Of a stretch of 32,266 nt of DNA, positions 16,398 through 26,799 are shown piece by piece (position 1 is the first letter of the stretch; each line of letters begins with the position of its first letter). The position numbers and the translations under genes are program-made. The notes beneath the pieces are model-generated. The model saw nothing but the letters and a program-made list of their open reading frames with translations, ran no database searches and was not told the DNA's origin. Origin of the DNA: Clostridiales bacterium (GTDB lineage Bacteria > Bacillota > Clostridia > Christensenellales > JAISNN01); the NCBI GenBank assembly GCA_031273965.1, contig JAISQX010000058.1, positions 1-32,266 of the forward strand. Reading direction: 5' to 3'.

Positions 16398-16859
16398 ATG
16401 TTTGAAGAAAAAGTTTACGAGTTTTTGGATGAAATCGTCAAAGTAGCGCCGATGTTCAAAAAGAATTTTATCGAGTCGTTGGGCTTTATAAAAGAGGGAC
16501 AACTGTCTAATCACCAGTATTTTTGTCTTTCTATTATAGCCATGCAAGAACCGGTGTCGATGAGTATACTCGCAGAGGGTCTGAACGTTTCGAAGCAACA
16601 GCTTACGAGAGTCGTTGACGATTTGGTGGCGTTGGGACTTATCGAGCGTTGTGTCGATCCTAACGACCGCCGCATTATCCTTGCGAAGCTTAGCCGCAAG
16701 GGAGAGAAGTACATTGCGAAACTTAAAGCGACGGCAAAAGAGCGCACCGCGTCATTGCTCAAGATAGTATCAGCCGAAGAGTTTGAAGAAGCTATACGCT
16801 GTCTAAAAAATCTGTCCGACTTTTATGAAAAAACCAAAAATATCGAGAGTGAGGAATAA
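16398..16859 (+). CDS. MarR-family transcriptional regulator
   Basis: 153 aa. It has the winged-helix region ILAEGLNVSKQQLTRVVDDLVALGLIERCVDPNDRRIILAKLSRKGE, typical of MarR. Confidence 0.92.
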   Translation: MFEEKVYEFLDEIVKVAPMFKKNFIESLGFIKEGQLSNHQYFCLSIIAMQEPVSMSILAEGLNVSKQQLTRVVDDLVALGLIERCVDPNDRRIILAKLSRKGEKYIAKLKATAKERTASLLKIVSAEEFEEAIRCLKNLSDFYEKTKNIESEE

Positions 16860-17080: not shown

Positions 17081-17210
17081 CGCGAACCGCATAAAAACCT
17101 CTCTTATTCTGTATACTACTTATTATCTTACAAATATTAATCGCGCCGTTAAGACTCGTGCGCCGTATTAATTTTGTTGACGATAGAGTATGTTGAAAGG
17201 GGGGAGAGAT

Positions 17211-18476
17211 ATGTCCGTTAAGCTTGCCGCAGCCATTTTTAATATTCTATCCGTGATAGCCGCGGGTTTATTTTTTTATCCTCTTAACAGCCGCTTGCGC
17301 GTTAACTATTTTGACGAGGCGGGCAACCGTATTGAGAGCGCGGAATATATTTGCAATTATCGCGGAATTACATATAAGGAAGCGCAAAGGATAATAGGCG
17401 TTTTTAAAAAACGCGGACTAAGCGAAAGCGCCGCCGCGGGAGAAATATACGTAGGTCTATACGCCGACCTTAGCCGTTTTGCCGCCGTGTACGGATATGA
17501 CGCGATAAACGCGGAGGCGGAATTTTTTCCGGAGGCGGAAGAACGGTTTAAATATAAGGAAGGAGTTTTTGGAGCGGGTCTGGACGAAAAGAGCGCGATA
17601 GACGCTATTATAAAAAGCGTCGGTAAAAAAAGCGTGGATGTGACGTTGAGAGTAATAAGATACGAACCGGAATATACGGAGGAGCTTTTGAGGGAAGTGA
17701 CGAAGTATAGAGCATCGTATTCGACAAGGTATCCCAATTCAAAACCGGAGAGAAAGAGCAATATAAAGCTTGCGGCAAGCAAACTAAGCGGCGCGGTTAT
17801 AAACCCTAACGACGTCTTTTCATTTAATGAAACGGTCGGTAAAAGAACGGCGGAACGCGGCTTTTTGAGCGCGCCTATAATATTTGACGGACAGCTTGTC
17901 GAGGGCGTAGGCGGCGGCGTATGTCAGGTCTCCACAACGCTCTATAACGCCGCTCTGTACGCGAACCTTGAAATAGTTCACGTCAAACGTCACAGCTCTA
18001 TGGTTGGATATGTCCCTCCGTCGTTTGACGCGATGGTTAGCGAATTAAACGACTTAAAATTTAAAAACAACACCGGATATCCGCTGTATCTGGCGGCGCA
18101 TGCCGACGACGACTTATTGAATATCGTATTTTACGGGAAACCTATGGAAGAAGGGTTAAAGATAAAGCTTAGAAGCCAAGTAAACAAGATAATACCCGGT
18201 ACGGATAAAGTTTTGATAAACGACGGCAGCTATGAGATTCCGGAGAATGAAAAATTCTTGAGGCTTGCGCGAAGCGCAAACGGTTGCGTAAGCGAGGGGT
18301 ATGCCGACTATATAAAAAACGGAACGACGATTAAATCGGTAAAAATAAGAAGCGACGAGTATAAACCTATGCAAGGCTTAATAGTTATGAATGCGACTAA
18401 AAAGGAAGAGCTTGCGAATCCGTCAAAAGCCTTACCGCTTATTCGTGAAAAAATAGGCGGTTGTTTCACGCTTTGA
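17211..18476 (+). CDS. VanW-family protein with an N-terminal membrane anchor
   Basis: I prefer the ATG at 17211 (GGGGGAG SD) over the track's 17190. The TM helix is LAAAIFNILSVIAAGLFFY. The VanW core motif GGGVCQVSTTLYNAAL is present. Confidence 0.88.
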   Translation: MSVKLAAAIFNILSVIAAGLFFYPLNSRLRVNYFDEAGNRIESAEYICNYRGITYKEAQRIIGVFKKRGLSESAAAGEIYVGLYADLSRFAAVYGYDAINAEAEFFPEAEERFKYKEGVFGAGLDEKSAIDAIIKSVGKKSVDVTLRVIRYEPEYTEELLREVTKYRASYSTRYPNSKPERKSNIKLAASKLSGAVINPNDVFSFNETVGKRTAERGFLSAPIIFDGQLVEGVGGGVCQVSTTLYNAALYANLEIVHVKRHSSMVGYVPPSFDAMVSELNDLKFKNNTGYPLYLAAHADDDLLNIVFYGKPMEEGLKIKLRSQVNKIIPGTDKVLINDGSYEIPENEKFLRLARSANGCVSEGYADYIKNGTTIKSVKIRSDEYKPMQGLIVMNATKKEELANPSKALPLIREKIGGCFTL

Positions 18477-18491
18477 GCCGTTTTTATAGAA

Positions 18492-18515
18492 ATTTTTGCG
18501 GTGCGCGCATAAAAT
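18492..18515 (+). repeat. Copy B of the short element flanking the vanW-family gene
   Basis: ATTTTTGCGG-t-GCGCGCATAAAAT, starting 16 nt after the vanW stop. It can fold as an imperfect hairpin, but no U-run follows. Confidence 0.6.
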
Positions 18516-18671
18516 TATAGACGGTACAGAACGCTTAAATGACAGTTTTTTTGTGCCGATTTGAGCGTGAAAAGGCTCTTTAGCGTATTGCGAGAGGCAA
18601 TGCGCTTACAGAATTCTGTAGTATATTATAATCCTTTATCCGCATACATGCGGCGGACTATTAAAAAATAA

Positions 18672-18689
18672 GGTATAAGACCGTTTTTT
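18672..18689 (+). repeat. Conserved 18-mer GGTATAAGACCGTTTTTT, copy 1
   Basis: Identical to 19702-19719. It has a weak hairpin (GGT-ataag-ACC) plus T6, so at best it is a weak terminator. Confidence 0.7.
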
Positions 18690-18724
18690 CTTTTTGTCTA
18701 TACTCTACCGATATGAAATAGGTT

Positions 18725-18754
18725 CTTGTGGTTGCGGGTTGGGAAAACCACAAG
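18725..18754 (+). promoter_or_regulatory. Inverted repeat / hairpin CTTGTGGTT-N12-AACCACAAG, module 1
   Basis: 9-bp arms at 18725-18733 / 18746-18754. The arms TTGTGGT/ACCACAA recur at 19753-19780 with an unrelated centre. Confidence 0.55.
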
Positions 18755-18811
18755 AAAGACGAAATAGCTTTTTAAAAAGCTTTCCGTCAACGGAAAAATA
18801 TATTTTTTCCA

Positions 18812-18841
18812 TTGACACGGGATTATATTATATTTTATAAT
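18812..18841 (+). promoter_or_regulatory. Sigma-A promoter, module 1 (TTGACA-18 nt-TATAAT)
   Basis: TTGACA at 18812-18817 and TATAAT at 18836-18841. It is preceded by the near-palindromic A/T tract GGAAAAATATATTTTTTCC (18792-18810). There is no ORF downstream. Confidence 0.55.
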
Positions 18842-19174
18842 TAAGAACGTAGATAGCCAACGTCGCTATTACGCACAAAAAAGCGATAGACCGGGTTTTT
18901 GGGTTTGTCACAAAAGAAGAAAGTATAACGAGAGAGCGATAACAAGCGGCAGAATCGGTTTTGTAGCCGTCTGCTATAAGACTTGTGTAGACGATATAAA
19001 TAAGAAGAAATATAAAGGAAAGAAAGCTTTTCCTTGCGCGCGTGGCTTTAGACGCGGTGGAAACCGCTTATGCGAAGAGAAGTCAGTAATTAAAGACACA
19101 AGCGGGCGGGGCAATTAAAAGACCGTACAAGCGCAATAACAGGGGATTAAGAAGGGTATAAGTACAAAAAAACA

Positions 19175-19385
19175 AAGCGGATAAGAAACGACGCATAAGA
19201 CAAAAAGGGCAAGAAAGAGACGGCGTTTCGTTGGCGGTTGCAGGGAAGCGGATAAGAAACGACGCATAAGACAAAAAGGGCAAGGAAGAGACAGCGTTTC
19301 GTTGGCTGTTGCATGGAAGCGGATAAGAAACGACGCATAAGACAAAAAGGGCAAGGAAGACGGCGTTTCGTTGGCTGTTGCAGGG
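19175..19385 (+). repeat. Three tandem direct repeats of 71, 71 and 69 bp
   Basis: The unit AAGCGGATAAGAAACGACGCATAAGACAAAAAGGGCAAG(A/G)AAGAGAC(G/A)GCGTTTCGTTGGC(G/T)GTTGCA(G/T)GG occurs at 19175, 19246 and 19317. R1 and R2 differ at 4 positions. R3 lacks 2 nt. Confidence 0.95.
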
Positions 19386-19701
19386 GAAAAAGTAATGAGG
19401 CGTACCCCCGACATACTCAAAGGCTTTTCCGTTTACGGTGGCAAAGGAAGATTCGCGGGCTCAAATAGGGAAGAGATAGAGGCGCAAACAATCTCGGCTG
19501 TGAATAAAAATTATTCGCAGTTTGAATAAGGAAGAAATAAATCCCGTTCGGGACGGCGCGTAAAGGGGTTTTTACGTTTTAGTGCAAGAATGTTTATACG
19601 CGACGAACGGTAAACGAAAAGCGCCTATAAAATCTCAAAGCGTGCGTAAAAAAGATATAGAAGCATATGATAGCGTTTAAACCCCATCGGAGGTCAAGTT
19701 C

Positions 19702-19719
19702 GGTATAAGACCGTTTTTT
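19702..19719 (+). repeat. Conserved 18-mer GGTATAAGACCGTTTTTT, copy 2 (possible weak terminator CGGT-ataag-ACCG + T7)
   Basis: Identical to 18672-18689. Here the stem is 4 bp and is followed by T7. Confidence 0.7.
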
Positions 19720-19752
19720 TAAGAAAAACTATTAATGCAAAAAAACGGCGGA

Positions 19753-19780
19753 TTGTGGTCGGAGAGGAGTGAAACCACAA
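19753..19780 (+). promoter_or_regulatory. Inverted repeat / hairpin TTGTGGT-N14-ACCACAA, module 2
   Basis: 7-bp arms identical to module 1, with the different centre cggagaggagtgaa. It ends 60 nt upstream of the -35 box at 19840. Confidence 0.55.
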
Positions 19781-19839
19781 AAAACATAGGGAAAATTGTA
19801 AAAAATATTCCGAAATGTAAAAAAAATAATATTTTTTTA

Positions 19840-19869
19840 TTGACAACAAGATAAATAAAGGTATATAAT
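19840..19869 (+). promoter_or_regulatory. Sigma-A promoter, module 2 (TTGACA-18 nt-TATAAT), likely promoter of the giant gene
   Basis: TTGACA at 19840-19845 and TATAAT at 19864-19869, preceded by a long A/T-rich UP-like tract. A second TATAAT sits at 19875-19880. Confidence 0.6.
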
Positions 19870-20277
19870 CAAACTATAATTAAATGATTAATGGGAAGAG
19901 GCTCGAATAAAATATAAGGTATAGAGCTGAAAAAATATTCTTATTGATTAGGTACGACGTAAAAAGCGAAGGAGGAATATGTAAAAATTCCGAATGGCAC
20001 TTTGACGCTGAAAAAACTGTAAAAACAAAAAAACGTCGGAGGACGACGATAAAACATGTCGCGCGCTATAAGCGAAGCGTTCGTAATTATACGATATACT
20101 TAAGACACAAGCGCGATAAACGCGCATTACGCGCGACAAGCGAAGCGGAGATATTTAAAAGCCGAAGAGTCGAATAAAAAAGCGGAGATTATCGAGGGAA
20201 AACCTCGTTGATATATAGAAACAAAAAAATTCGGTTAATGGAAACCGAAAAAACAAAAAATTGACTGGAGGTCAGAT

Positions 20278-23200
20278 ATGGGTAAGAATGGGTATGTACA
20301 GCCGGCGGTGCGCGGCGTACACGGCGCGAGAGCGCGCAAGCAAACGCTTTGGGTTTGGGCAGGTATGCTCTTTTTAAGCGTGATGTTTTTATTAGCGTTG
20401 ATGCCCGGCTACACGGGGCATTCGTACGGCGCTGCGGCGGCGGGCGGTCAGGAGATATCGGAGAGCGCCGACGACGGCGACAGCTTCGTCGCCGCGGATA
20501 AAGATATTGGCGATATGACGATAGACGAGATAATATTGTTGTTGGAAACGTCGGCGTCTTCTCCGGAGGGCGAGGTTATTTATGACGGAACCGTGCCCGA
20601 ATATGGCGGACTCACGGAGGGATCGCCTTTTTACATAGTGCTTAGTTCATTGAGAGCTATTCCGGGTATTTTGGAAATAACTATCGATATTCCGGGTTTG
20701 ACAAAGAATGCCGGTGACTATCCTTTTACTACTACCTTAAGGACTAAGCCGGGGTATACCTTTAACGAGGGAACGGCTTCGGCGAGCGATTATACGATAA
20801 ATCCGGAAAAAACCGTGATAACGATACAAAAGGAAGGCATCGAATTTCACATTAAGCCGATGATTTTGGAGCTTTCTCAAAAAACGCCGATCATATCAAA
20901 GACTTACGACGGCTATACGACTCCCGGAACCGCTTTGACTATAAGTAATTTCGGTACATACTTTGATACTCCCGCGTTAGGAGCAGGCGATACGATAGCT
21001 AACGTGTTTGACGTCGGAAGCTGCTATTATAACGATAAGGACGTGGACGACGCGGACACGTTTACGATAAATCTTTCGCTTAAGACGGATAACTATTTAT
21101 TTAAAAATGGCGTGTCGAATTTTGACTTTGACGCGAGTATAAATCCGAAAGCGATAGATTTTGAGATAATAGACGCCCAAAATAAGATATATGACGGCAA
21201 CGCTACGGCGACGCGGGGCGAGCATTTTGATTTGAAATTCAACGGCGCGCACGAAAACATATCCACAACGGATTATATCTTGGACAATGCGTTCTACAAT
21301 AATGCGAATATCGGTAAAAATAGATTTATCACCGTGCAAATCACATTGGCGGATACCAAAAAAATGCATAACTACTCGTTGCCCGTTAACGAGGTATATA
21401 CGGACGCGACGCTTGAGATTGAAACCAATATCAGAGTATCGGAAACCGAGCTGAGAGAGATAACCGACGTCTTGCTTACGGATAAAGAATCGGAATATAA
21501 CGGAATGACCAAATCCGGTATATACGACAGCGCGAAAGCCGCTATTTTTGTGATGTTGAACAAGCCGGGGTTCCCAGAGAAATTGGAAAGTATAGATATA
21601 TCTTTTGCTCCGACGAGTGTTATCGACGCGGGAACGTATACCGTAACCATAGTTATAACTCTTACCGCAGATACAATATTTTCGGACAACAAAGAGGAAA
21701 CAAGGGAATTTACCCGGGTGTTAACAATAACTCCGAAAGTGCTTACCGTTTCCGGTATAACCGCGCAAAACAAAATGTATGACGGGACAAACGTGATAAC
21801 AATAATCACGGACAGTATGAATGTAGGCGGAATAGCCGCTATCGACGATAATAATGAAGCGCTGCTTAAAGTAACGGTTAGAGGCGGCAACGGTCATACC
21901 TTGACCGCCGCTCCGGGAGTGAATAAGACAGTATTTATCGAGCTTGATATAGAGGGTTCGAGAGCGAGTAATTACAGTGACAACGCGACCGCCAACACAA
22001 CGGTGACAATAAGACCTACGGGTCAGGAGGAGCCGGTTGACAATCTTGGTACGTCGCCCAAAATAATCGGGTTAACCGTAGACGAGATAGCCGCGTTATT
22101 TGAAGGCATGGAGAGCGAGTACAACGGACTTGTGCAGAACAATCTCTATAGCGCGATAATAACATATTTACGCAGCCAAGATGGTATAGGCGACATAAAA
22201 ATATCCTTTATTGACGGCATAGAGAAAAATGCCGGAGTATATAATGTGAGGCTAACCTTAACGGCGATCGAAAATCCGGACGAGATTAATGGAAATTTGA
22301 ATCCGATAGCGTATGCCTTCAGCAACGGAGAAGCGGTGCTTGAAATAAACGTACAGTTGACTATAACCAAAAAAGCCTTGACGGTAAGCAACGTAACCGC
22401 CCAAGATAAAGAATACGACGGCAACACGGTTATCGATATGGATACGAACGCCGCGGTGTTTGACGGACAGATACCGACGGACGATTTGACTATATCGGTT
22501 GTGGGCGAAACAGGCTTTACGGCGGACGCCAGCGTGGGCAAGAATAAAAAGGTATATGTGGAACTGACTCTCGGCGGAGCGGATAGAGATAACTACTTAT
22601 TGACGGCGTTGACCGACGTCACGGCGACGATAAGACCTACGGGGCATGAGGAGCCGACGGATCTTCCGGAGACGGAGCACTTATTAGTCGGTTTAACGAT
22701 AGACGAAATAACGGCTTTGTTAGCCGATAAGAGCAGCGAATACGACGGAACCGTGCAGAGCGGATACTACAGCGACATTATAGCGTATTTGGAAAGCGTT
22801 GTCGGTATAGCGGACGTGGACGTCGAGTTTGACAACTTAAAGAAAGACGCGGGCGAATATGACGTTAGATTTACGTTAAAAGCCGACGAAGATCCCGTAA
22901 ATGAGGAAGCGTATGCCTTTAGCGACGAGGAGTCGACTCTTATCATAGACGTAAAGTTTACGGTTGAAAAGAGAGCTTTGAGAGTCACGGGCGGCATAAC
23001 CGCGTATGACAAGACTTATAATGGCGACAACGTGATACCGATCACCGAAAGCGGCGTTAGCTATGACAGAAAAATAACATGGGATGATTTGGTTGCAAGC
23101 GTCCTCGGCGGCGTAGGATATACGGACAACGCGAGCGTCGGAAAGAACAAGCCCGTGTACGTAAAGCTTAATTTTACGGGAGCCGACAGAGATAACTATA

Positions 23201-26200
23201 AGGTTGAGGCGTATGTTGACGGCGTAACGGCGACAATAAGACCGACCGGCGCGGAAGAGCCGGACGATCCGATCACGGAGTCCAAAATAGTCGAATTGAC
23301 GGTAGCCGAGATAGAAGAGACTTTGACCGGTCACAGCAGCGTATACGACGGAACCGCGCAAAGCAACTATTACGACGATATCAAAGCGTATTTGGAAAAC
23401 GTTGTCGGTATAGCGGACGTGGACGTCGAGTTTGACAACATAAGGAAAGACGTGGGCGTATACGACGTAAGAATAACCTTAACGGCGGAAGAAAACCCGA
23501 ACGGAAATCCCGCTTTTGCGTACGGATTTAGCGACGGAGAATCGACGCTTGTCATAAACACGCAATTGACGATAACAAAAAGAGAGCTGACGATAACCGG
23601 AGGCATAACCGCCGAGGACAAGACTTACGACGGTAACAATGAAATAACCGTCGCTATAGGAAGCCTGCAACAGATAGGGAAAATACCCTCGGATGATTTG
23701 CAATTTGGCGTCAAAGACGGAAAAGGTTATACGGATAACGCGAGCGTGGGAAAGAATAAACAGGTATATGTAAACCTTATTCTTTCGGGCGCGGACGCGG
23801 ACAACTACAAAGAGAAGGCGTATATAGAAAACACGACTGTAAATATATTGCCGAGCGGTGTAAATCCCGATCCGGATCCCAATCCGGATCCGTCGGACGA
23901 CAGGATAATAGACTTGACGGTGGAGGAAATAGAGGCTTTATTCACCGATAAGCGCAGCGAATATGACGGAACCGTACAGATCGGCTACTATGATGATATT
24001 AAGGACTACTTATTATCCGTGGAAGGTATAGCAAGCGTGGACGTCGTGTTTGACAACTTGAGAAAGGACGCCGGCGCATACAACGTAACTATAACGCTTA
24101 GGGCGGATGAGGACACGAACGGAAATCCCGCTTTGGCGTACGGATTTAGCGATATGGAGTCCGAGCTTGTCATAAACGCCGTATTTACGGTTGAAAAGAG
24201 AGCTTTGACGGTAACGAGCGGTATAACCGCCTACGACAAGACTTACGACGGTAACAATGTAATACAAATCGACATAAGCGTTGTGAATTTTGACAGAAAA
24301 ATAGCCAGCGACGACTTGAGTATCGACTTGAACGGCGTTAACGGCTACACCGACAACGCGAGCGTCGGAAAGAACAAACCGGTGTACGTAAAGCTTGATT
24401 TTACGGGCGCCGACAGAGATAACTATAAGATTGAGGCGTACGTCAACGACGTAACGGCAACGATAAGACCCACGGGCGTGGACATACCCGACACGAATCC
24501 CGACGACGATAGAATAATAGACGGAATTGAGGTCGAAGAAATAATCGCGCTTTTTACGGACAAGAGCAGCGAATATGACGGAACGGTACAGAACGGATAC
24601 TTTGAATCTATAAGAGCTATGCTTTTGGCTATCGAGGGAATAGGATACGTATATGTAGACTATGGCGCACTGACAAAGGACGTCGGCGTTTACGATATCA
24701 AGGTTACGGTAAAGGCGGAAGAATACCCGAACAGGAATCCCGCTTTGGCGTACGGATTTAGGAACGGAGAGTCCGAAATAGTCATAGATGCGAAATTTAT
24801 TATAACGCCGAAGATGCTAACCGTGCACGGAGTAACGGCGGAGAATAGAAAATATGACGGAACGCCCACCGTAGACCTTGAAGTGAATAACATGACGATA
24901 TCCGGAGTGATATCGGGCGATGACGTTAATGCGACGATAACGGACGCGGACACCAACAAAGATGGAATACAAGGCACCGTCGAAACCGCCGCACCCGGGA
25001 AGAACAAAACCGTCTATGTGAATTTGTCGCTTAGCGGAGCGGATTTATCTAATTACAGCATAAAGGGCATAGCCGGTACGGTAAATATAACCGTCGGAGA
25101 CACGGAACCCGATAGCTCCGAAATCATAGGATGGGACGTTGTGGACGCCATAAAATATGCCGTGACGGATATAAGAACGACGTATAACAAGACCTCGCAA
25201 AAAGATGCGTTTGACGCGTATATTGATTCGGCGATAAGAGATTATACCGATAAAGTCGTTGTCTCTTCGGTGACCTTTGACAGAGATCCTTTCAACGCGG
25301 GAGCGTATACGGCGACTATAAGAATTGAGGCGTTCAGAGATTATCAAACGGCGTATGTGTTCGGTAACGGAGAAAGCTACTTTGAGTTTGAAAGAACCTT
25401 GACAATCGACAGAAGAGAGGTTATAATTCTCGGCGTGACGACGGCTTATCCGAACAACACCAGACCGTACGACGGAACCAACGTGGTGGCGATAGTAATG
25501 CCGGGCGCTAATAATTACAGCGGAATAATAGCCGGCGACGTAATATATATCTCCGCGCCCGTAGGCAATGTCGGCTATATGGTCGACGCCAGCGTGGGAA
25601 AAAACAAGAAAGTTGAAATAAACGCCACTATAGGCGGGGCGGACGCGCATAACTACGCGCTCAGACCGATTGCGGATGTGACGGTAACCATAACGCCGAC
25701 GCAAAACCAAAACGGCGAGGACTTGATAGTCGAAATGTCGGTTGAGGAAATAGCCGCGCAGATTTCACCCCTGTCAATCGAATATGACGGAAAGGTGCAC
25801 GACTGCGCAACACTGTACGACGAGGACGCGAACGGCATTAAAGACGGAGTGTACAACACCGTGTACGCCAATCCTTTTGACGGAATAAAATACGCATTGG
25901 AAGCGGTTATCGGAATTGCGGACGCGAGGTTTGACATAGTGAGATTGTCAAAAGACGCGGGCATATATAGGGTAATCGTTACGATAACGGCGGAATCCGA
26001 TCCGCTTGTGCCTATGGCTTACGCTTTCGGTAACGGCGAATCTAAGATTTCGTTTGAAACGACCTTGACCATAACGAGAAGGCAATTGACCGTGACTTCC
26101 GGGGTAGAGGTGGAAAATAAAGTCGGCGGCAAAGGAACTAAGATTTATGACGGAAAAACCGACGTAACGCTCAATGTCGCGACTATGGCGCCTAATTGGA

Positions 26201-26799
26201 AAGGCAAAGTGGCGGAAGACGATTTGTCGCTCATGCTCATTCATAATAACGGAAAGGCGGTTGGCTATACGGCTTCTCCGAATGCCGGAAAAAACAAGGC
26301 GATAAGCGTAAAGGCTTATCTCAGCGGAGCCGATGTGAGAAACTATGACGCGAACGTTATATTGGAGGGAGTATCGGTCGATATCTTGCCGAGAGAAATA
26401 ACCGCTAAGGTTACTATCAATGAAAAAGATTACGACGGAACGACCGGCGCAACCGTAAAAGAAGTGGAATTTGACAACCTCGTGGAAGGCGAAACGTTGA
26501 TAGAGGGCGTTGACTATACTATAGAAGCTCGCTTTACGGACGAAGAACCCGGCGACGACAAGAGCGTAATAGTAACCATAAACCTCGACAATGGAAACTA
26601 TGCGTTCTCCGACGCAAATCCGATTAACGGAACGGTTACCGACGGCGGCGCACACGCGGTGTTTGAGGTTAGGGGCGGAAGAATCGTTTCTACGGGAATT
26701 AAGCTTTGGGGCTGGTTCTTACTCGGCACGGGCACATCCTTTGCGATAGGAATATTCTTGTCTTTCTTAAAGAAAAGCGGAATGATTTTGGCGGCGTAA
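20278..26799 (+). CDS. 2173-aa modular cell-surface protein with alternating MBG-like and YDG-type adhesin repeats, an N-terminal signal peptide and a C-terminal TM anchor
   Basis: GGAGG at 20267-20271, 6 nt before the ATG. The signal/TM segment is WVWAGMLFLSVMFLLALMP..SYG/AAA. The motif set xYDG(T/N)..., GKNKxVYV and GAD(R/A)xNY occurs about 11 times, alternating with SEYDGTVQ...DAGxYDV...T(I/V)xK(R/K)xLTV modules. The C-terminus is LWGWFLLGTGTSFAIGIFLSFLKKSG. The domain family names come from motif recognition only. Confidence 0.9.
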   Translation: MGKNGYVQPAVRGVHGARARKQTLWVWAGMLFLSVMFLLALMPGYTGHSYGAAAAGGQEISESADDGDSFVAADKDIGDMTIDEIILLLETSASSPEGEVIYDGTVPEYGGLTEGSPFYIVLSSLRAIPGILEITIDIPGLTKNAGDYPFTTTLRTKPGYTFNEGTASASDYTINPEKTVITIQKEGIEFHIKPMILELSQKTPIISKTYDGYTTPGTALTISNFGTYFDTPALGAGDTIANVFDVGSCYYNDKDVDDADTFTINLSLKTDNYLFKNGVSNFDFDASINPKAIDFEIIDAQNKIYDGNATATRGEHFDLKFNGAHENISTTDYILDNAFYNNANIGKNRFITVQITLADTKKMHNYSLPVNEVYTDATLEIETNIRVSETELREITDVLLTDKESEYNGMTKSGIYDSAKAAIFVMLNKPGFPEKLESIDISFAPTSVIDAGTYTVTIVITLTADTIFSDNKEETREFTRVLTITPKVLTVSGITAQNKMYDGTNVITIITDSMNVGGIAAIDDNNEALLKVTVRGGNGHTLTAAPGVNKTVFIELDIEGSRASNYSDNATANTTVTIRPTGQEEPVDNLGTSPKIIGLTVDEIAALFEGMESEYNGLVQNNLYSAIITYLRSQDGIGDIKISFIDGIEKNAGVYNVRLTLTAIENPDEINGNLNPIAYAFSNGEAVLEINVQLTITKKALTVSNVTAQDKEYDGNTVIDMDTNAAVFDGQIPTDDLTISVVGETGFTADASVGKNKKVYVELTLGGADRDNYLLTALTDVTATIRPTGHEEPTDLPETEHLLVGLTIDEITALLADKSSEYDGTVQSGYYSDIIAYLESVVGIADVDVEFDNLKKDAGEYDVRFTLKADEDPVNEEAYAFSDEESTLIIDVKFTVEKRALRVTGGITAYDKTYNGDNVIPITESGVSYDRKITWDDLVASVLGGVGYTDNASVGKNKPVYVKLNFTGADRDNYKVEAYVDGVTATIRPTGAEEPDDPITESKIVELTVAEIEETLTGHSSVYDGTAQSNYYDDIKAYLENVVGIADVDVEFDNIRKDVGVYDVRITLTAEENPNGNPAFAYGFSDGESTLVINTQLTITKRELTITGGITAEDKTYDGNNEITVAIGSLQQIGKIPSDDLQFGVKDGKGYTDNASVGKNKQVYVNLILSGADADNYKEKAYIENTTVNILPSGVNPDPDPNPDPSDDRIIDLTVEEIEALFTDKRSEYDGTVQIGYYDDIKDYLLSVEGIASVDVVFDNLRKDAGAYNVTITLRADEDTNGNPALAYGFSDMESELVINAVFTVEKRALTVTSGITAYDKTYDGNNVIQIDISVVNFDRKIASDDLSIDLNGVNGYTDNASVGKNKPVYVKLDFTGADRDNYKIEAYVNDVTATIRPTGVDIPDTNPDDDRIIDGIEVEEIIALFTDKSSEYDGTVQNGYFESIRAMLLAIEGIGYVYVDYGALTKDVGVYDIKVTVKAEEYPNRNPALAYGFRNGESEIVIDAKFIITPKMLTVHGVTAENRKYDGTPTVDLEVNNMTISGVISGDDVNATITDADTNKDGIQGTVETAAPGKNKTVYVNLSLSGADLSNYSIKGIAGTVNITVGDTEPDSSEIIGWDVVDAIKYAVTDIRTTYNKTSQKDAFDAYIDSAIRDYTDKVVVSSVTFDRDPFNAGAYTATIRIEAFRDYQTAYVFGNGESYFEFERTLTIDRREVIILGVTTAYPNNTRPYDGTNVVAIVMPGANNYSGIIAGDVIYISAPVGNVGYMVDASVGKNKKVEINATIGGADAHNYALRPIADVTVTITPTQNQNGEDLIVEMSVEEIAAQISPLSIEYDGKVHDCATLYDEDANGIKDGVYNTVYANPFDGIKYALEAVIGIADARFDIVRLSKDAGIYRVIVTITAESDPLVPMAYAFGNGESKISFETTLTITRRQLTVTSGVEVENKVGGKGTKIYDGKTDVTLNVATMAPNWKGKVAEDDLSLMLIHNNGKAVGYTASPNAGKNKAISVKAYLSGADVRNYDANVILEGVSVDILPREITAKVTINEKDYDGTTGATVKEVEFDNLVEGETLIEGVDYTIEARFTDEEPGDDKSVIVTINLDNGNYAFSDANPINGTVTDGGAHAVFEVRGGRIVSTGIKLWGWFLLGTGTSFAIGIFLSFLKKSGMILAA
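22010..25090 (+). repeat. Five tandem ~603-620-bp coding repeats (about 201-206 aa each) inside the giant gene, with weaker copies on both sides
   Basis: The module-end motif (..TIRPTG..) recurs near 22012, 22632, 23236, 23848, 24466, 25085, 25690 and 26385. Segment 22783-22836 matches 23386-23439 at 53 of 54 nt. Segments from about 23114 and about 24349 are roughly 90% identical over about 130 nt, by eye. Confidence 0.9.

What the first reader, a model, noticed from the sequence alone, without database searches (positions are those of the whole stretch)
19175..19385. Three tandem 71-bp repeats whose period excludes coding
Units of 71, 71 and 69 bp are about 94% identical. 71 is not a multiple of 3, so each copy would be read in a different frame. 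All three + frames of the unit contain stops (TAA at unit nt 22-24, unit nt 8-10 and, in the third frame, after read-through into the next unit). The three open minus-strand frames in the ORF track are a by-product of the pyrimidine-rich antisense strand. Each unit carries AAGCGGATAAGA, ATAAGAC and a possible GAAACG/CGTTTC 6-bp pairing. The related decamer AAGCGGAGAT recurs twice in the adhesin leader (20143-20152, 20180-20189). Repeated identical units could be arrayed binding sites for a DNA- or RNA-binding protein, and copy number could vary between strains.
Basis: seen in the sequence. Interest (0 to 1): 0.6.

Follow-up and report, generated by a model that had tools for sequence, protein, structure and literature searches.

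The report
Non-coding 71-bp minisatellite in RNA leader
Three head-to-tail copies of a 71-base non-coding segment lie inside a probably transcribed, purine-rich spacer upstream of a giant surface-protein gene in an uncultured Clostridia-type bacterium; they look like an ordinary, lineage-specific duplication with no detectable structure, relatives or partner protein.

Summary
Tandem Repeats Finder gives 19175-19385, period 71, 3.0 copies, 94% matches; the units are 71, 71 and 69 nt. The array cannot be coding: the period is not a multiple of 3, one copy has a 2-nt deletion, and two + frames carry TAA.

It lies in a 1.8-kb gap between a VanW gene and a 2173-aa YDG-domain surface protein. It starts 327 nt downstream of a perfect TTGACA-18-TATAAT promoter (P1), so it is probably transcribed. 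P1 and the adhesin promoter P2 share a duplicated ~190-bp upstream module.

Nothing supports a specific function:
- no RNA structure above shuffles and no Rfam match;
- no SD-like or GGA enrichment, and no CsrA or Hfq found;
- no toxin gene downstream;
- no second copy in the genome, and no relative in 40 related genomes, metagenomes, plasmids or phages.

Best reading: a two-step slippage or unequal-recombination triplication, a VNTR-like minisatellite in an untranslated leader, probably near-neutral. A weak hint of constraint remains: the first 38 nt are invariant (P~0.02).

This scan has noted similar repeat arrays before giant adhesin genes in other genomes. Ordinary; low interest.

The parts
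18672..18689 (+). 18-mer GGTATAAGACCGTTTTTT, first landmark of promoter module 1
   Evidence: An identical copy lies at 19702-19719.
18723..18756 (+). Inverted repeat TTGTGGT-N14-ACCACAA of module 1, centred about 108 nt before the inferred P1 start
   Evidence: The fold gives -14.2 kcal/mol, z -3.2. The same arms recur at 19753-19780 in module 2.
18812..18841 (+). Promoter P1, TTGACA-18-TATAAT (12 of 12 matches)
   Evidence: Found. The genome holds 68 such perfect sites against about 1 expected from base composition (my estimate), nearly all intergenic and upstream of ORFs.
18848..19174 (+). 5' part of the inferred P1 transcript; purine-rich and untranslated
   Evidence: No + strand terminator-like site lies between P1 and the array. 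ACAAGCG and ATAAGAC words are enriched.
19175..19245 (+). Repeat unit 1 (71 nt)
19246..19316 (+). Repeat unit 2 (71 nt; private A48 and T69)
19317..19385 (+). Repeat unit 3 (69 nt; private 2-nt deletion; shares G40 and T62 with unit 2)
19395..19529 (+). Orphan 44-codon ORF directly after the array; status uncertain
   Evidence: It has a weak SD (GGGGA, -6.5 kcal/mol). It has no homologue in 5.8 billion proteins or in 5 same-genus genomes. Its codon score is 0.318, and 13% of spurious ORFs score as high.
19558..19584 (+). Weak A/U-rich hairpin followed by UUUU; a possible leaky terminator after the small ORF
   Evidence: The fold is -10.8 kcal/mol together with its neighbour, z -0.3. The terminator scan did not call it.
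19700..19719 (+). CGGU-AUAAG-ACCG plus U7-8: copy 2 of the 18-mer and a weak terminator-like end of the P1 transcript
   Evidence: 4-bp stem only.
19840..19869 (+). Promoter P2, TTGACA-18-TATAAT, for the giant gene
   Evidence: Found. The P1 and P2 modules (18661-18847 and 19691-19875) align with z 6.7, 0 of 300 shuffles as good.
19876..20277 (+). About 400-nt leader of the giant gene, with AAGCGGAGAT at 20143 and 20180
   Evidence: It is not detectably similar to 18848-19174 (z 0.03).
20278..26799 (+). 2173-aa surface protein with 10 YDG domains
   Evidence: Pfam PF18657, E 9.9e-94.

Best explanation
The array is a lineage-specific, non-coding minisatellite. A 71-bp piece of an untranslated, purine-rich spacer was duplicated twice by slipped-strand mispairing or unequal recombination. 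The first event made unit 1 plus the ancestor of units 2 and 3; the second split units 2 and 3. The copies then drifted by 2-4 substitutions and one GA-slippage deletion. The spacer is most likely transcribed from the perfect sigma-A-type promoter P1, with a start near 18848. On that reading the repeats add 140 nt to an unstructured, G-rich and C-poor RNA. That RNA either ends weakly before P2 or reads on into the giant adhesin gene. The repeats are probably tolerated rather than required. Their expected behaviour is that of a VNTR: copy number changes by recombination and alters leader length. Shown here: the repeat, its non-coding nature, its uniqueness, and its lack of structure, relatives and partners. 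Inferred: transcription from P1, the order of the duplications, and near-neutrality.
For: The repeat is real, and its period of 71 and 2-nt indel are incompatible with coding. The shared derived states G40 and T62 in units 2 and 3 give a two-step history. The unit occurs nowhere else in the 1.43-Mb assembly (blastn, nhmmer). The 1.8-kb gap has no match in 5 same-genus and 35 same-order genomes, or in plasmids and phages. Exact words of the unit gave 0 hits or only chance hits in metagenome and genome collections. Gene order downstream of VanW is not kept in the genus. There is no RNA structure: array z -1.0 (+) and 0.2 (-); units z 0.03, -0.69 and -0.48; the 873-nt transcript z -0.49. Rfam gave nothing at gathering score and nothing credible at E<=5. 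P1 is credible: there are 68 perfect-consensus promoters in the genome, nearly all intergenic and gene-proximal. The array is among the most purine-skewed 211-nt windows of the genome, sixth of 27,777, which fits a sense-strand transcript. The same assembly holds other non-coding arrays with periods that are not multiples of 3 (148-154 nt, 41 nt, 53 nt). A same-genus genome has unrelated 74-nt x2.4 and 45-nt x3 arrays before its own 2208-aa surface-protein gene. Such duplications are therefore common in this lineage.
Against: All five variable sites fall in unit positions 40-71, and the first 38 nt are identical in all copies ((32/71)^5 is about 0.02, a post hoc test). The copies differ by 3-6% yet the array has not collapsed. 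The words AAGCG, ACAAGCG and ATAAGAC are enriched in the tract over dinucleotide shuffles (0 of 1000 shuffles reach the observed counts). These three points could reflect selection on an RNA or DNA motif. Transcription is inferred only from a promoter match.
Confidence: 0.55

Rival explanations
1. RNA-level multi-site platform. The P1 transcript is a regulatory RNA or leader. Its three invariant 38-nt purine blocks (AAGCGGA plus two AUAAGA words each) would be repeated landing sites for a single-strand RNA-binding protein or nuclease. It would be co-regulated with the adhesin through the duplicated promoter module, acting as a sponge or as a stabilising or anti-termination leader.
For: A perfect promoter lies upstream. 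P1 and P2 share a homologous upstream module (z 6.7). The composition is extremely purine-rich and unstructured. The words are locally enriched, and AAGCGGA recurs in the adhesin leader. The first 38 nt of each unit are invariant.
Against: GGA and AGGA are not enriched. No CsrA or Hfq was found, although the genome is only 69% complete. The units contain no SD-like site. The unit shows no significant pairing to the adhesin leader (6% of shuffles as good). There is no conservation anywhere, and no other genomic locus carries a comparable motif cluster.
Confidence: 0.2
2. DNA-level array of binding sites for a transcription factor or nucleoid protein acting on P2 or P1; one candidate is the MarR-family regulator encoded 2.3 kb upstream.
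For: Repeated identical units lie 455-665 bp upstream of P2. A MarR gene sits at 16398-16859. Another array in this genome (C196:8792-8896) lies directly before a perfect promoter.
Against: The unit has no dyad of the kind MarR dimers use, only GAAACG/CGTTTC 33 nt apart. A 71-bp period is about 6.8 helical turns, so sites are not on one face. The array is far from both promoters and downstream of P1. There is no DnaA-box excess. The strong strand asymmetry suits RNA better than duplex recognition.
Confidence: 0.08
3. Antitoxin-like RNA repeat array of a type III toxin-antitoxin-like system, or another processed small-RNA array.
For: The layout of promoter, tandem repeats and weak hairpins resembles the locus definition quoted in PMC12283969: tandem repeats between the promoter and a terminator, followed by the toxin gene.
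Against: No toxin gene follows. Only an orphan hydrophilic 44-codon ORF is there, and no small ORF on either strand matches Pfam or PADLOC. The unit has no pseudoknot-like or other stable fold. By my recollection of the literature, a 71-nt unit is about twice the 34-48 nt known for such arrays. The next gene has its own promoter and encodes a 2173-aa surface protein.
Confidence: 0.03
4. Assembly effect: the repeat is real, but its copy number or the differences between units are artefacts of short-read metagenome assembly.
For: The genome is a 215-contig, 69% complete MAG. Other arrays sit at contig ends (C141, C68, C186), which shows that repeats disturb this assembly.
Against: The array is internal to a 32-kb contig. 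The three units carry distinct substitutions and an indel that let an assembler order them.
Confidence: 0.05
5. A protein is encoded on the minus strand (the 101-aa ORF at 19115-19420).
For: All three minus frames of the unit are open.
Against: The repeat shifts frame with every unit, and a 2-nt indel separates copies. The ORF starts at TTG with no SD. There is no family match, and its codon score of 0.06 is well below real genes (mean 0.41). Open frames are expected on a pyrimidine-rich strand, because all three stop codons are purine-rich.
Confidence: 0.02

Closest known systems
Bacterial intergenic minisatellites / VNTRs, e.g. mycobacterial MIRU loci (units of about 40-100 bp; from my own knowledge of the literature)
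   Same: Both are head-to-tail non-coding units of tens of bases lying between genes of one orientation. Copies are slightly diverged. Both are thought to arise by slippage or unequal recombination.
   Different: MIRUs form a dispersed family at many loci and vary in copy number between strains. This unit is single-locus in its genome, and variation could not be tested.
[quoted passage not shown]
   Same: Both are tandem repeats inside a 5' untranslated leader. In clbR, repeat number modulates expression about 2-fold, which is the kind of mild effect to be expected here.
   Different: The clbR array has many more copies (5 to 20 compared in that paper), is documented to vary in size between isolates, and has a measured effect. 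Here there are three 71-nt units, no strain data and no measurement.
7-bp repeats in the hmw1A/hmw2A adhesin promoters of Haemophilus influenzae (PMC8262952)
   Same: Both are non-coding tandem repeats upstream of a large adhesin gene.
   Different: Those are short-unit phase-variable slippage tracts lying between the promoter and the gene. A 71-bp unit in three copies is not a classical contingency tract.
Type III toxin-antitoxin RNA arrays (ToxI, CptI, TenpI; PMC8860590, PMC12283969)
   Same: Both have a promoter followed by near-identical tandem non-coding repeats.
   Different: There is no toxin gene, no fold, and the unit is about twice as long. See the membership test.
CsrB/RsmZ-type protein-sponge RNAs
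   Same: Both would be non-coding RNAs carrying a reiterated purine-rich motif.
   Different: GGA motifs are not enriched and are not presented in hairpin loops. No CsrA gene was found.

Membership tests
Non-coding minisatellite / VNTR | Head-to-tail copies of a unit longer than about 10 bp | tested here: met
   TRF gives period 71, 3.0 copies, 94% matches.
Non-coding minisatellite / VNTR | Lies outside protein-coding sequence | tested here: met
   The period is not a multiple of 3, one copy has a 2-nt indel, the + frames carry TAA, and the minus ORFs have no family match.
Non-coding minisatellite / VNTR | Copy number differs between strains | not testable with these tools
Dispersed repeat families (REP/BIME, MIRU-like, MITE) | Several copies at different loci of the genome | tested here: not met
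   blastn and nhmmer find only the three tandem units; the next best hit has E 0.36.
Type III toxin-antitoxin locus | Tandem repeats between a promoter and a terminator | tested here: inconclusive
   The promoter and repeats are present. Only weak hairpins follow.
Type III toxin-antitoxin locus | A ToxN/AbiQ/CptN/TenpN-type toxin gene directly downstream | tested here: not met
   Downstream ORFs are 44 and 32 aa with no Pfam or PADLOC match at E<=1. The ToxN family search of the genome was empty but had no positive control.
CsrB/RsmZ-type sponge RNA | Many GGA motifs, mostly in hairpin loops | tested here: not met
   GGA occurs 24 times against 26.4 expected, and AGGA 7 times against 8.5. No hairpins were found.
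CsrB/RsmZ-type sponge RNA | CsrA encoded in the genome | tested here: inconclusive
   PF02599 was not found, but the genome is 69% complete.
Riboswitch or other curated structured RNA (single or tandem aptamers) | Match to a covariance model, or a fold better than shuffles | tested here: not met
   Rfam gave 0 hits at gathering score, and only two chance-level hits at E<=5, both outside the array. Fold z scores lie between -1.0 and 0.2.
CRISPR array | Repeats separated by unique spacers | tested here: not met
   The units abut directly.
STAB-SD-type stabilising leader (Gram-positive) | Strong SD-like site in the leader that is not used for initiation | tested here: not met
   No site at or below -6 kcal/mol against the anti-SD lies inside the units; the only one is CAGGGGA at the 3' edge of unit 3.
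Iteron or partition-site arrays (e.g. sopC-like) | Adjacent rep or par genes, and a short dyad in each unit | tested here: not met
   The context is chromosomal housekeeping genes: EF-Tu, RecF-like, Maf, MreB, VanW, RNase R. There is no plasmid or phage similarity.

The most novel reading that the evidence does not exclude
The array is the working core of a ~0.9-kb purine-rich regulatory RNA. Its promoter module was copied from, or to, the giant adhesin's own promoter, so both would be switched together. The three invariant 38-nt blocks would be repeated binding sites for an unidentified single-strand RNA-binding protein. That protein would couple expression, stability or anti-termination of the 6.5-kb adhesin mRNA to unit number.
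Probability: 0.1. Interest if true: 0.55.

Novelty: new member of a known kind. Interest (0 to 1): 0.2.

Why it matters
If the ordinary reading holds, the array is mainly useful as a possible strain-typing or length-variable marker, and as a warning about assembly in an uncultured Clostridia lineage. It would matter more if unit number tuned expression of the giant surface protein, or if the purine-rich RNA titrated a protein. It would then be a Gram-positive example of repeat-length control of an adhesin through a co-regulated leader RNA. Nothing found here points beyond a mild effect of the clbR-VNTR kind.

Tried and rejected
- Structured RNA or riboswitch: Rfam at gathering score and at E<=5, and folds of units, array and whole transcript, all gave nothing.
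- CsrA-type or Hfq-type sponge: GGA is not enriched, and no CsrA or Hfq was found.
- SD-mimic stabiliser: there are no SD-like sites in the units.
- Type III TA: there is no toxin.
- Pairing of the unit with the adhesin leader or start region: not better than shuffles.
- DnaA-box cluster or origin: 9 matches in the window against 5.8 expected, and none in the array at up to 1 mismatch.
- Dispersed family: none.
- Conservation: same genus and order, metagenome and genome word scans (the three 20-mer hits are chance), plasmids and phages.
- Gene order: VanW homologues in three genus genomes are not followed by an adhesin. The adhesin has no orthologue, only domain-level paralogues.
- The unit as a diverged copy of the flanks or of the adhesin leader: not supported, but the scoring penalised end gaps, so this is a weak test.
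- Homology of the leaders downstream of the two promoters: none (z 0.03).
- Further copies of the promoter module in the genome: none.
- Small ORF 19395-19529 as a real gene: no homologues, and its codon score is not distinctive.
- Generality: among 15 giant genes (1400 aa or more) fetched around YDG matches in the genus and order, only one has an upstream array. Among control genes, 18 of 304 do. Repeat arrays are therefore not a general trait of these leaders.

Full report
**Observation.** Tandem Repeats Finder reports one array at 19175-19385: period 71, 3.0 copies, 94% matches, score 380. The repeat finder returns the same three units. The units are 19175-19245, 19246-19316 and 19317-19385, of 71, 71 and 69 nt.

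In the MAFFT alignment, unit 1 differs from unit 2 at four positions (40, 48, 62, 69). Unit 3 carries a 2-nt deletion within AAGAGAC. It shares G40 and T62 with unit 2, and G48 and G69 with unit 1.

TAA lies at unit nt 8-10 and 22-24, and the third + frame runs into the next unit's TAA (sequence). The minus strand is open in all frames, with ORFs of 66, 101 and 63 aa.

**Coding is excluded.** A period of 71 changes the frame at each unit, and a 2-nt indel separates copies. None of the small ORFs on either strand matches Pfam or PADLOC at E<=1, apart from three chance-level Pfam hits far below their cut-offs. The minus ORFs have codon scores of 0.01-0.13, against 0.41 +/- 0.14 for real genes. 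Open minus frames are expected on a pyrimidine-rich strand.

**Setting.** The array lies in a 1.8-kb gap (18477-20277) between a VanW-family gene (17190-18476) and a 2173-aa protein with ten YDG domains (20278-26799). The rest of the window is chromosomal housekeeping: EF-Tu, a RecF-like ATPase, Maf, MreB, an HtrA-like protease and RNase R. The genome is a 1.43-Mb, 215-contig, 69% complete assembly with 44% GC. Protein neighbours are named Clostridiales or Clostridia MAGs.

**Two promoters.**
- Two perfect TTGACA-18-TATAAT sites lie at 18812-18841 (P1) and 19840-19869 (P2).
- The genome holds 68 such 12-of-12 sites, against about 1 expected from base composition (my estimate). Almost all are intergenic and upstream of an ORF on the same strand. 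Both sites are therefore probably real promoters.
- Each is preceded by the same landmarks: the 18-mer GGTATAAGACCGTTTTTT (18672, 19702) and the inverted repeat TTGTGGT-N14-ACCACAA (fold z -3.2 for copy 1).
- The ~190-bp modules align with z 6.7, and 0 of 300 dinucleotide shuffles do as well. The sequences downstream of the two starts are not similar (z 0.03).
- No third copy of the module exists in the assembly.

**Position of the array.** The array starts 327 nt after the inferred P1 start, and no + strand terminator-like site lies in between. After the array come an orphan 44-codon ORF (19395-19529), a weak A/U hairpin, and a 4-bp hairpin plus a U-run. P1 transcripts may therefore end leakily or read on into P2 and the adhesin gene. 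The array is among the most purine-skewed 211-nt windows of the genome, sixth of 27,777. This fits a sense-strand transcript. Transcription remains an inference.

**Tests of function.**
- *RNA structure:* none. Array z -1.0 (+) and 0.2 (-); single units z 0.03, -0.69 and -0.48; junction registers z -1.39 and -0.68; the 873-nt transcript z -0.49.
- *The GAAACG/CGTTTC pairing:* it is absent from the single-unit minimum-energy folds. The G48A change in unit 2 breaks an adjacent possible pair without compensation.
- *Rfam:* nothing at gathering score, and two chance-level hits at E<=5, both outside the array.
- *Anti-SD pairing:* no site at or below -6 kcal/mol inside the units.
- *GGA and AGGA:* at shuffle expectation. 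CsrA and Hfq were not found, with the caveat of 69% completeness.
- *Toxin gene downstream:* none.
- *DnaA-box excess:* none.
- *Pairing of the unit to the adhesin leader or start region:* not significant.

**Points that remain in favour of function.** Local word enrichment is real. After collapsing the array to one unit, AAGCG occurs 14 times against 5.2 expected, ACAAGCG 5 against 0.18, and ATAAGAC 3 against 0.16; none of 1000 shuffles reaches these counts. These tests are post hoc. No other locus in the genome has a comparable cluster in non-coding sequence. In addition, all five variable sites of the units lie in positions 40-71 (about P 0.02, also post hoc).

**Relatives.**
- The unit is unique in its genome.
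- The gap has no match in 5 same-genus and 35 same-order genomes, except one 48-nt AT-rich stretch, and none in plasmids or phages.
- Exact 22-mer and 33-mer patterns gave 0 hits. A 20-mer gave three hits with no flanking similarity.
- The species has no close strain. The best VanW relative among 5.8 billion proteins is 59% identical, and same-genus homologues are 54-55% identical.
- Genes downstream of VanW differ in the genus, and the adhesin has only domain-level paralogues.
Copy-number variation and expression therefore cannot be addressed here.

**Is this a habit of the lineage?** The assembly holds other non-coding arrays whose periods are not multiples of 3 (148-154, 53 and 41 nt). A same-genus genome has a 2208-aa surface-protein gene that is not an orthologue (31% identity over 119 aa). 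It is preceded by an unrelated 74-nt x2.4 array and, within its leader, an A-rich 45-nt x3.0 array. In a wider sample, however, only 1 of 15 giant genes had an upstream array, against 18 of 304 control genes. This is not a general property of YDG-protein leaders.

**Reading.** The best-supported account is a two-step tandem duplication of a piece of a fast-evolving, probably transcribed, untranslated spacer: a minisatellite of the known VNTR kind. The copies are 3-6% diverged and there is a GA-slippage deletion. Any effect is most likely mild and length-dependent, as measured for the clbR leader VNTR (about 2-fold; PMC7364221). I put this at 0.55. A functional RNA platform is at 0.2, a DNA-binding array at 0.08, and the other readings are lower.

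**Links to earlier notes of this scan.** Other first-reader notes on this window had already pointed to the two promoter modules, to the candidate 0.87-kb RNA and to the ATAAGAC excess. I tested these here. The scan has also recorded comparable repeat arrays in leaders before giant adhesin genes in other genomes.

Noticed in passing
window 18661-18847 and 19691-19875: Two homologous ~190-bp promoter modules (18-mer, 7-N14-7 inverted repeat about 108 nt before the start, perfect -35/-10) lie 1030 bp apart. One drives the repeat-bearing tract and the other the giant gene. The conserved arms and spacing of the inverted repeat suggest a shared regulator site.
   Followed up: partly
window 18829-18849 and 20078-20098: A 21-nt inverted repeat (18 of 21 complementary) has a TATAAT in each arm. 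It brackets 1.27 kb that includes the array and P2. In principle this could be an invertible segment, but my rough estimate gives about 10% for a chance match, and no recombinase is encoded in the window.
   Followed up: no
window 19967-19981: The strongest SD in the gap (AAGGAGG, -11.9 kcal/mol) is followed by ATG-TAA. This is a start-stop mini-ORF in the adhesin leader.
   Followed up: no
own genome C90:2390-2753, C202:4674-5018, C179:5693-6045, plus single copies on C9, C100, C97, C31, C167, C208, C27: A ~150-nt hairpin-rich repeat family is both tandem (2.2-2.4 copies) and dispersed, with 85-91% identity between contigs. One copy (C208) follows a perfect promoter. There is no Rfam match at E<=0.1 and no tRNA. 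This may be an undescribed small-RNA or REP-like family.
   Followed up: partly
own genome C141:3400-3947: A 148-nt x3.7 non-coding array runs into a contig end. The unit is found nowhere else in the assembly.
   Followed up: no
own genome C196:8792-8896: A 41-nt x2.5 tandem repeat ends 17 nt before the -35 of a perfect promoter (8913) of a 586-aa gene. This is a better-placed candidate for arrayed regulator sites than the 71-nt array.
   Followed up: no
L027 (G004:C196, reverse strand), the 419 nt before the 2208-aa ORF: A same-genus genome has a 74-nt x2.4 array (98% matches) upstream of a promoter-like site, and an A-rich 45-nt x3.0 array (94%) filling the leader up to the SD of its own giant surface-protein gene. 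The contig ends in the 74-nt array.
   Followed up: partly
whole own genome: There are 68 perfect TTGACA-N16-18-TATAAT sites in 1.43 Mb, against about 1 expected. This is an unusually consensus-like promoter set and would make promoter annotation easy in this lineage.
   Followed up: partly
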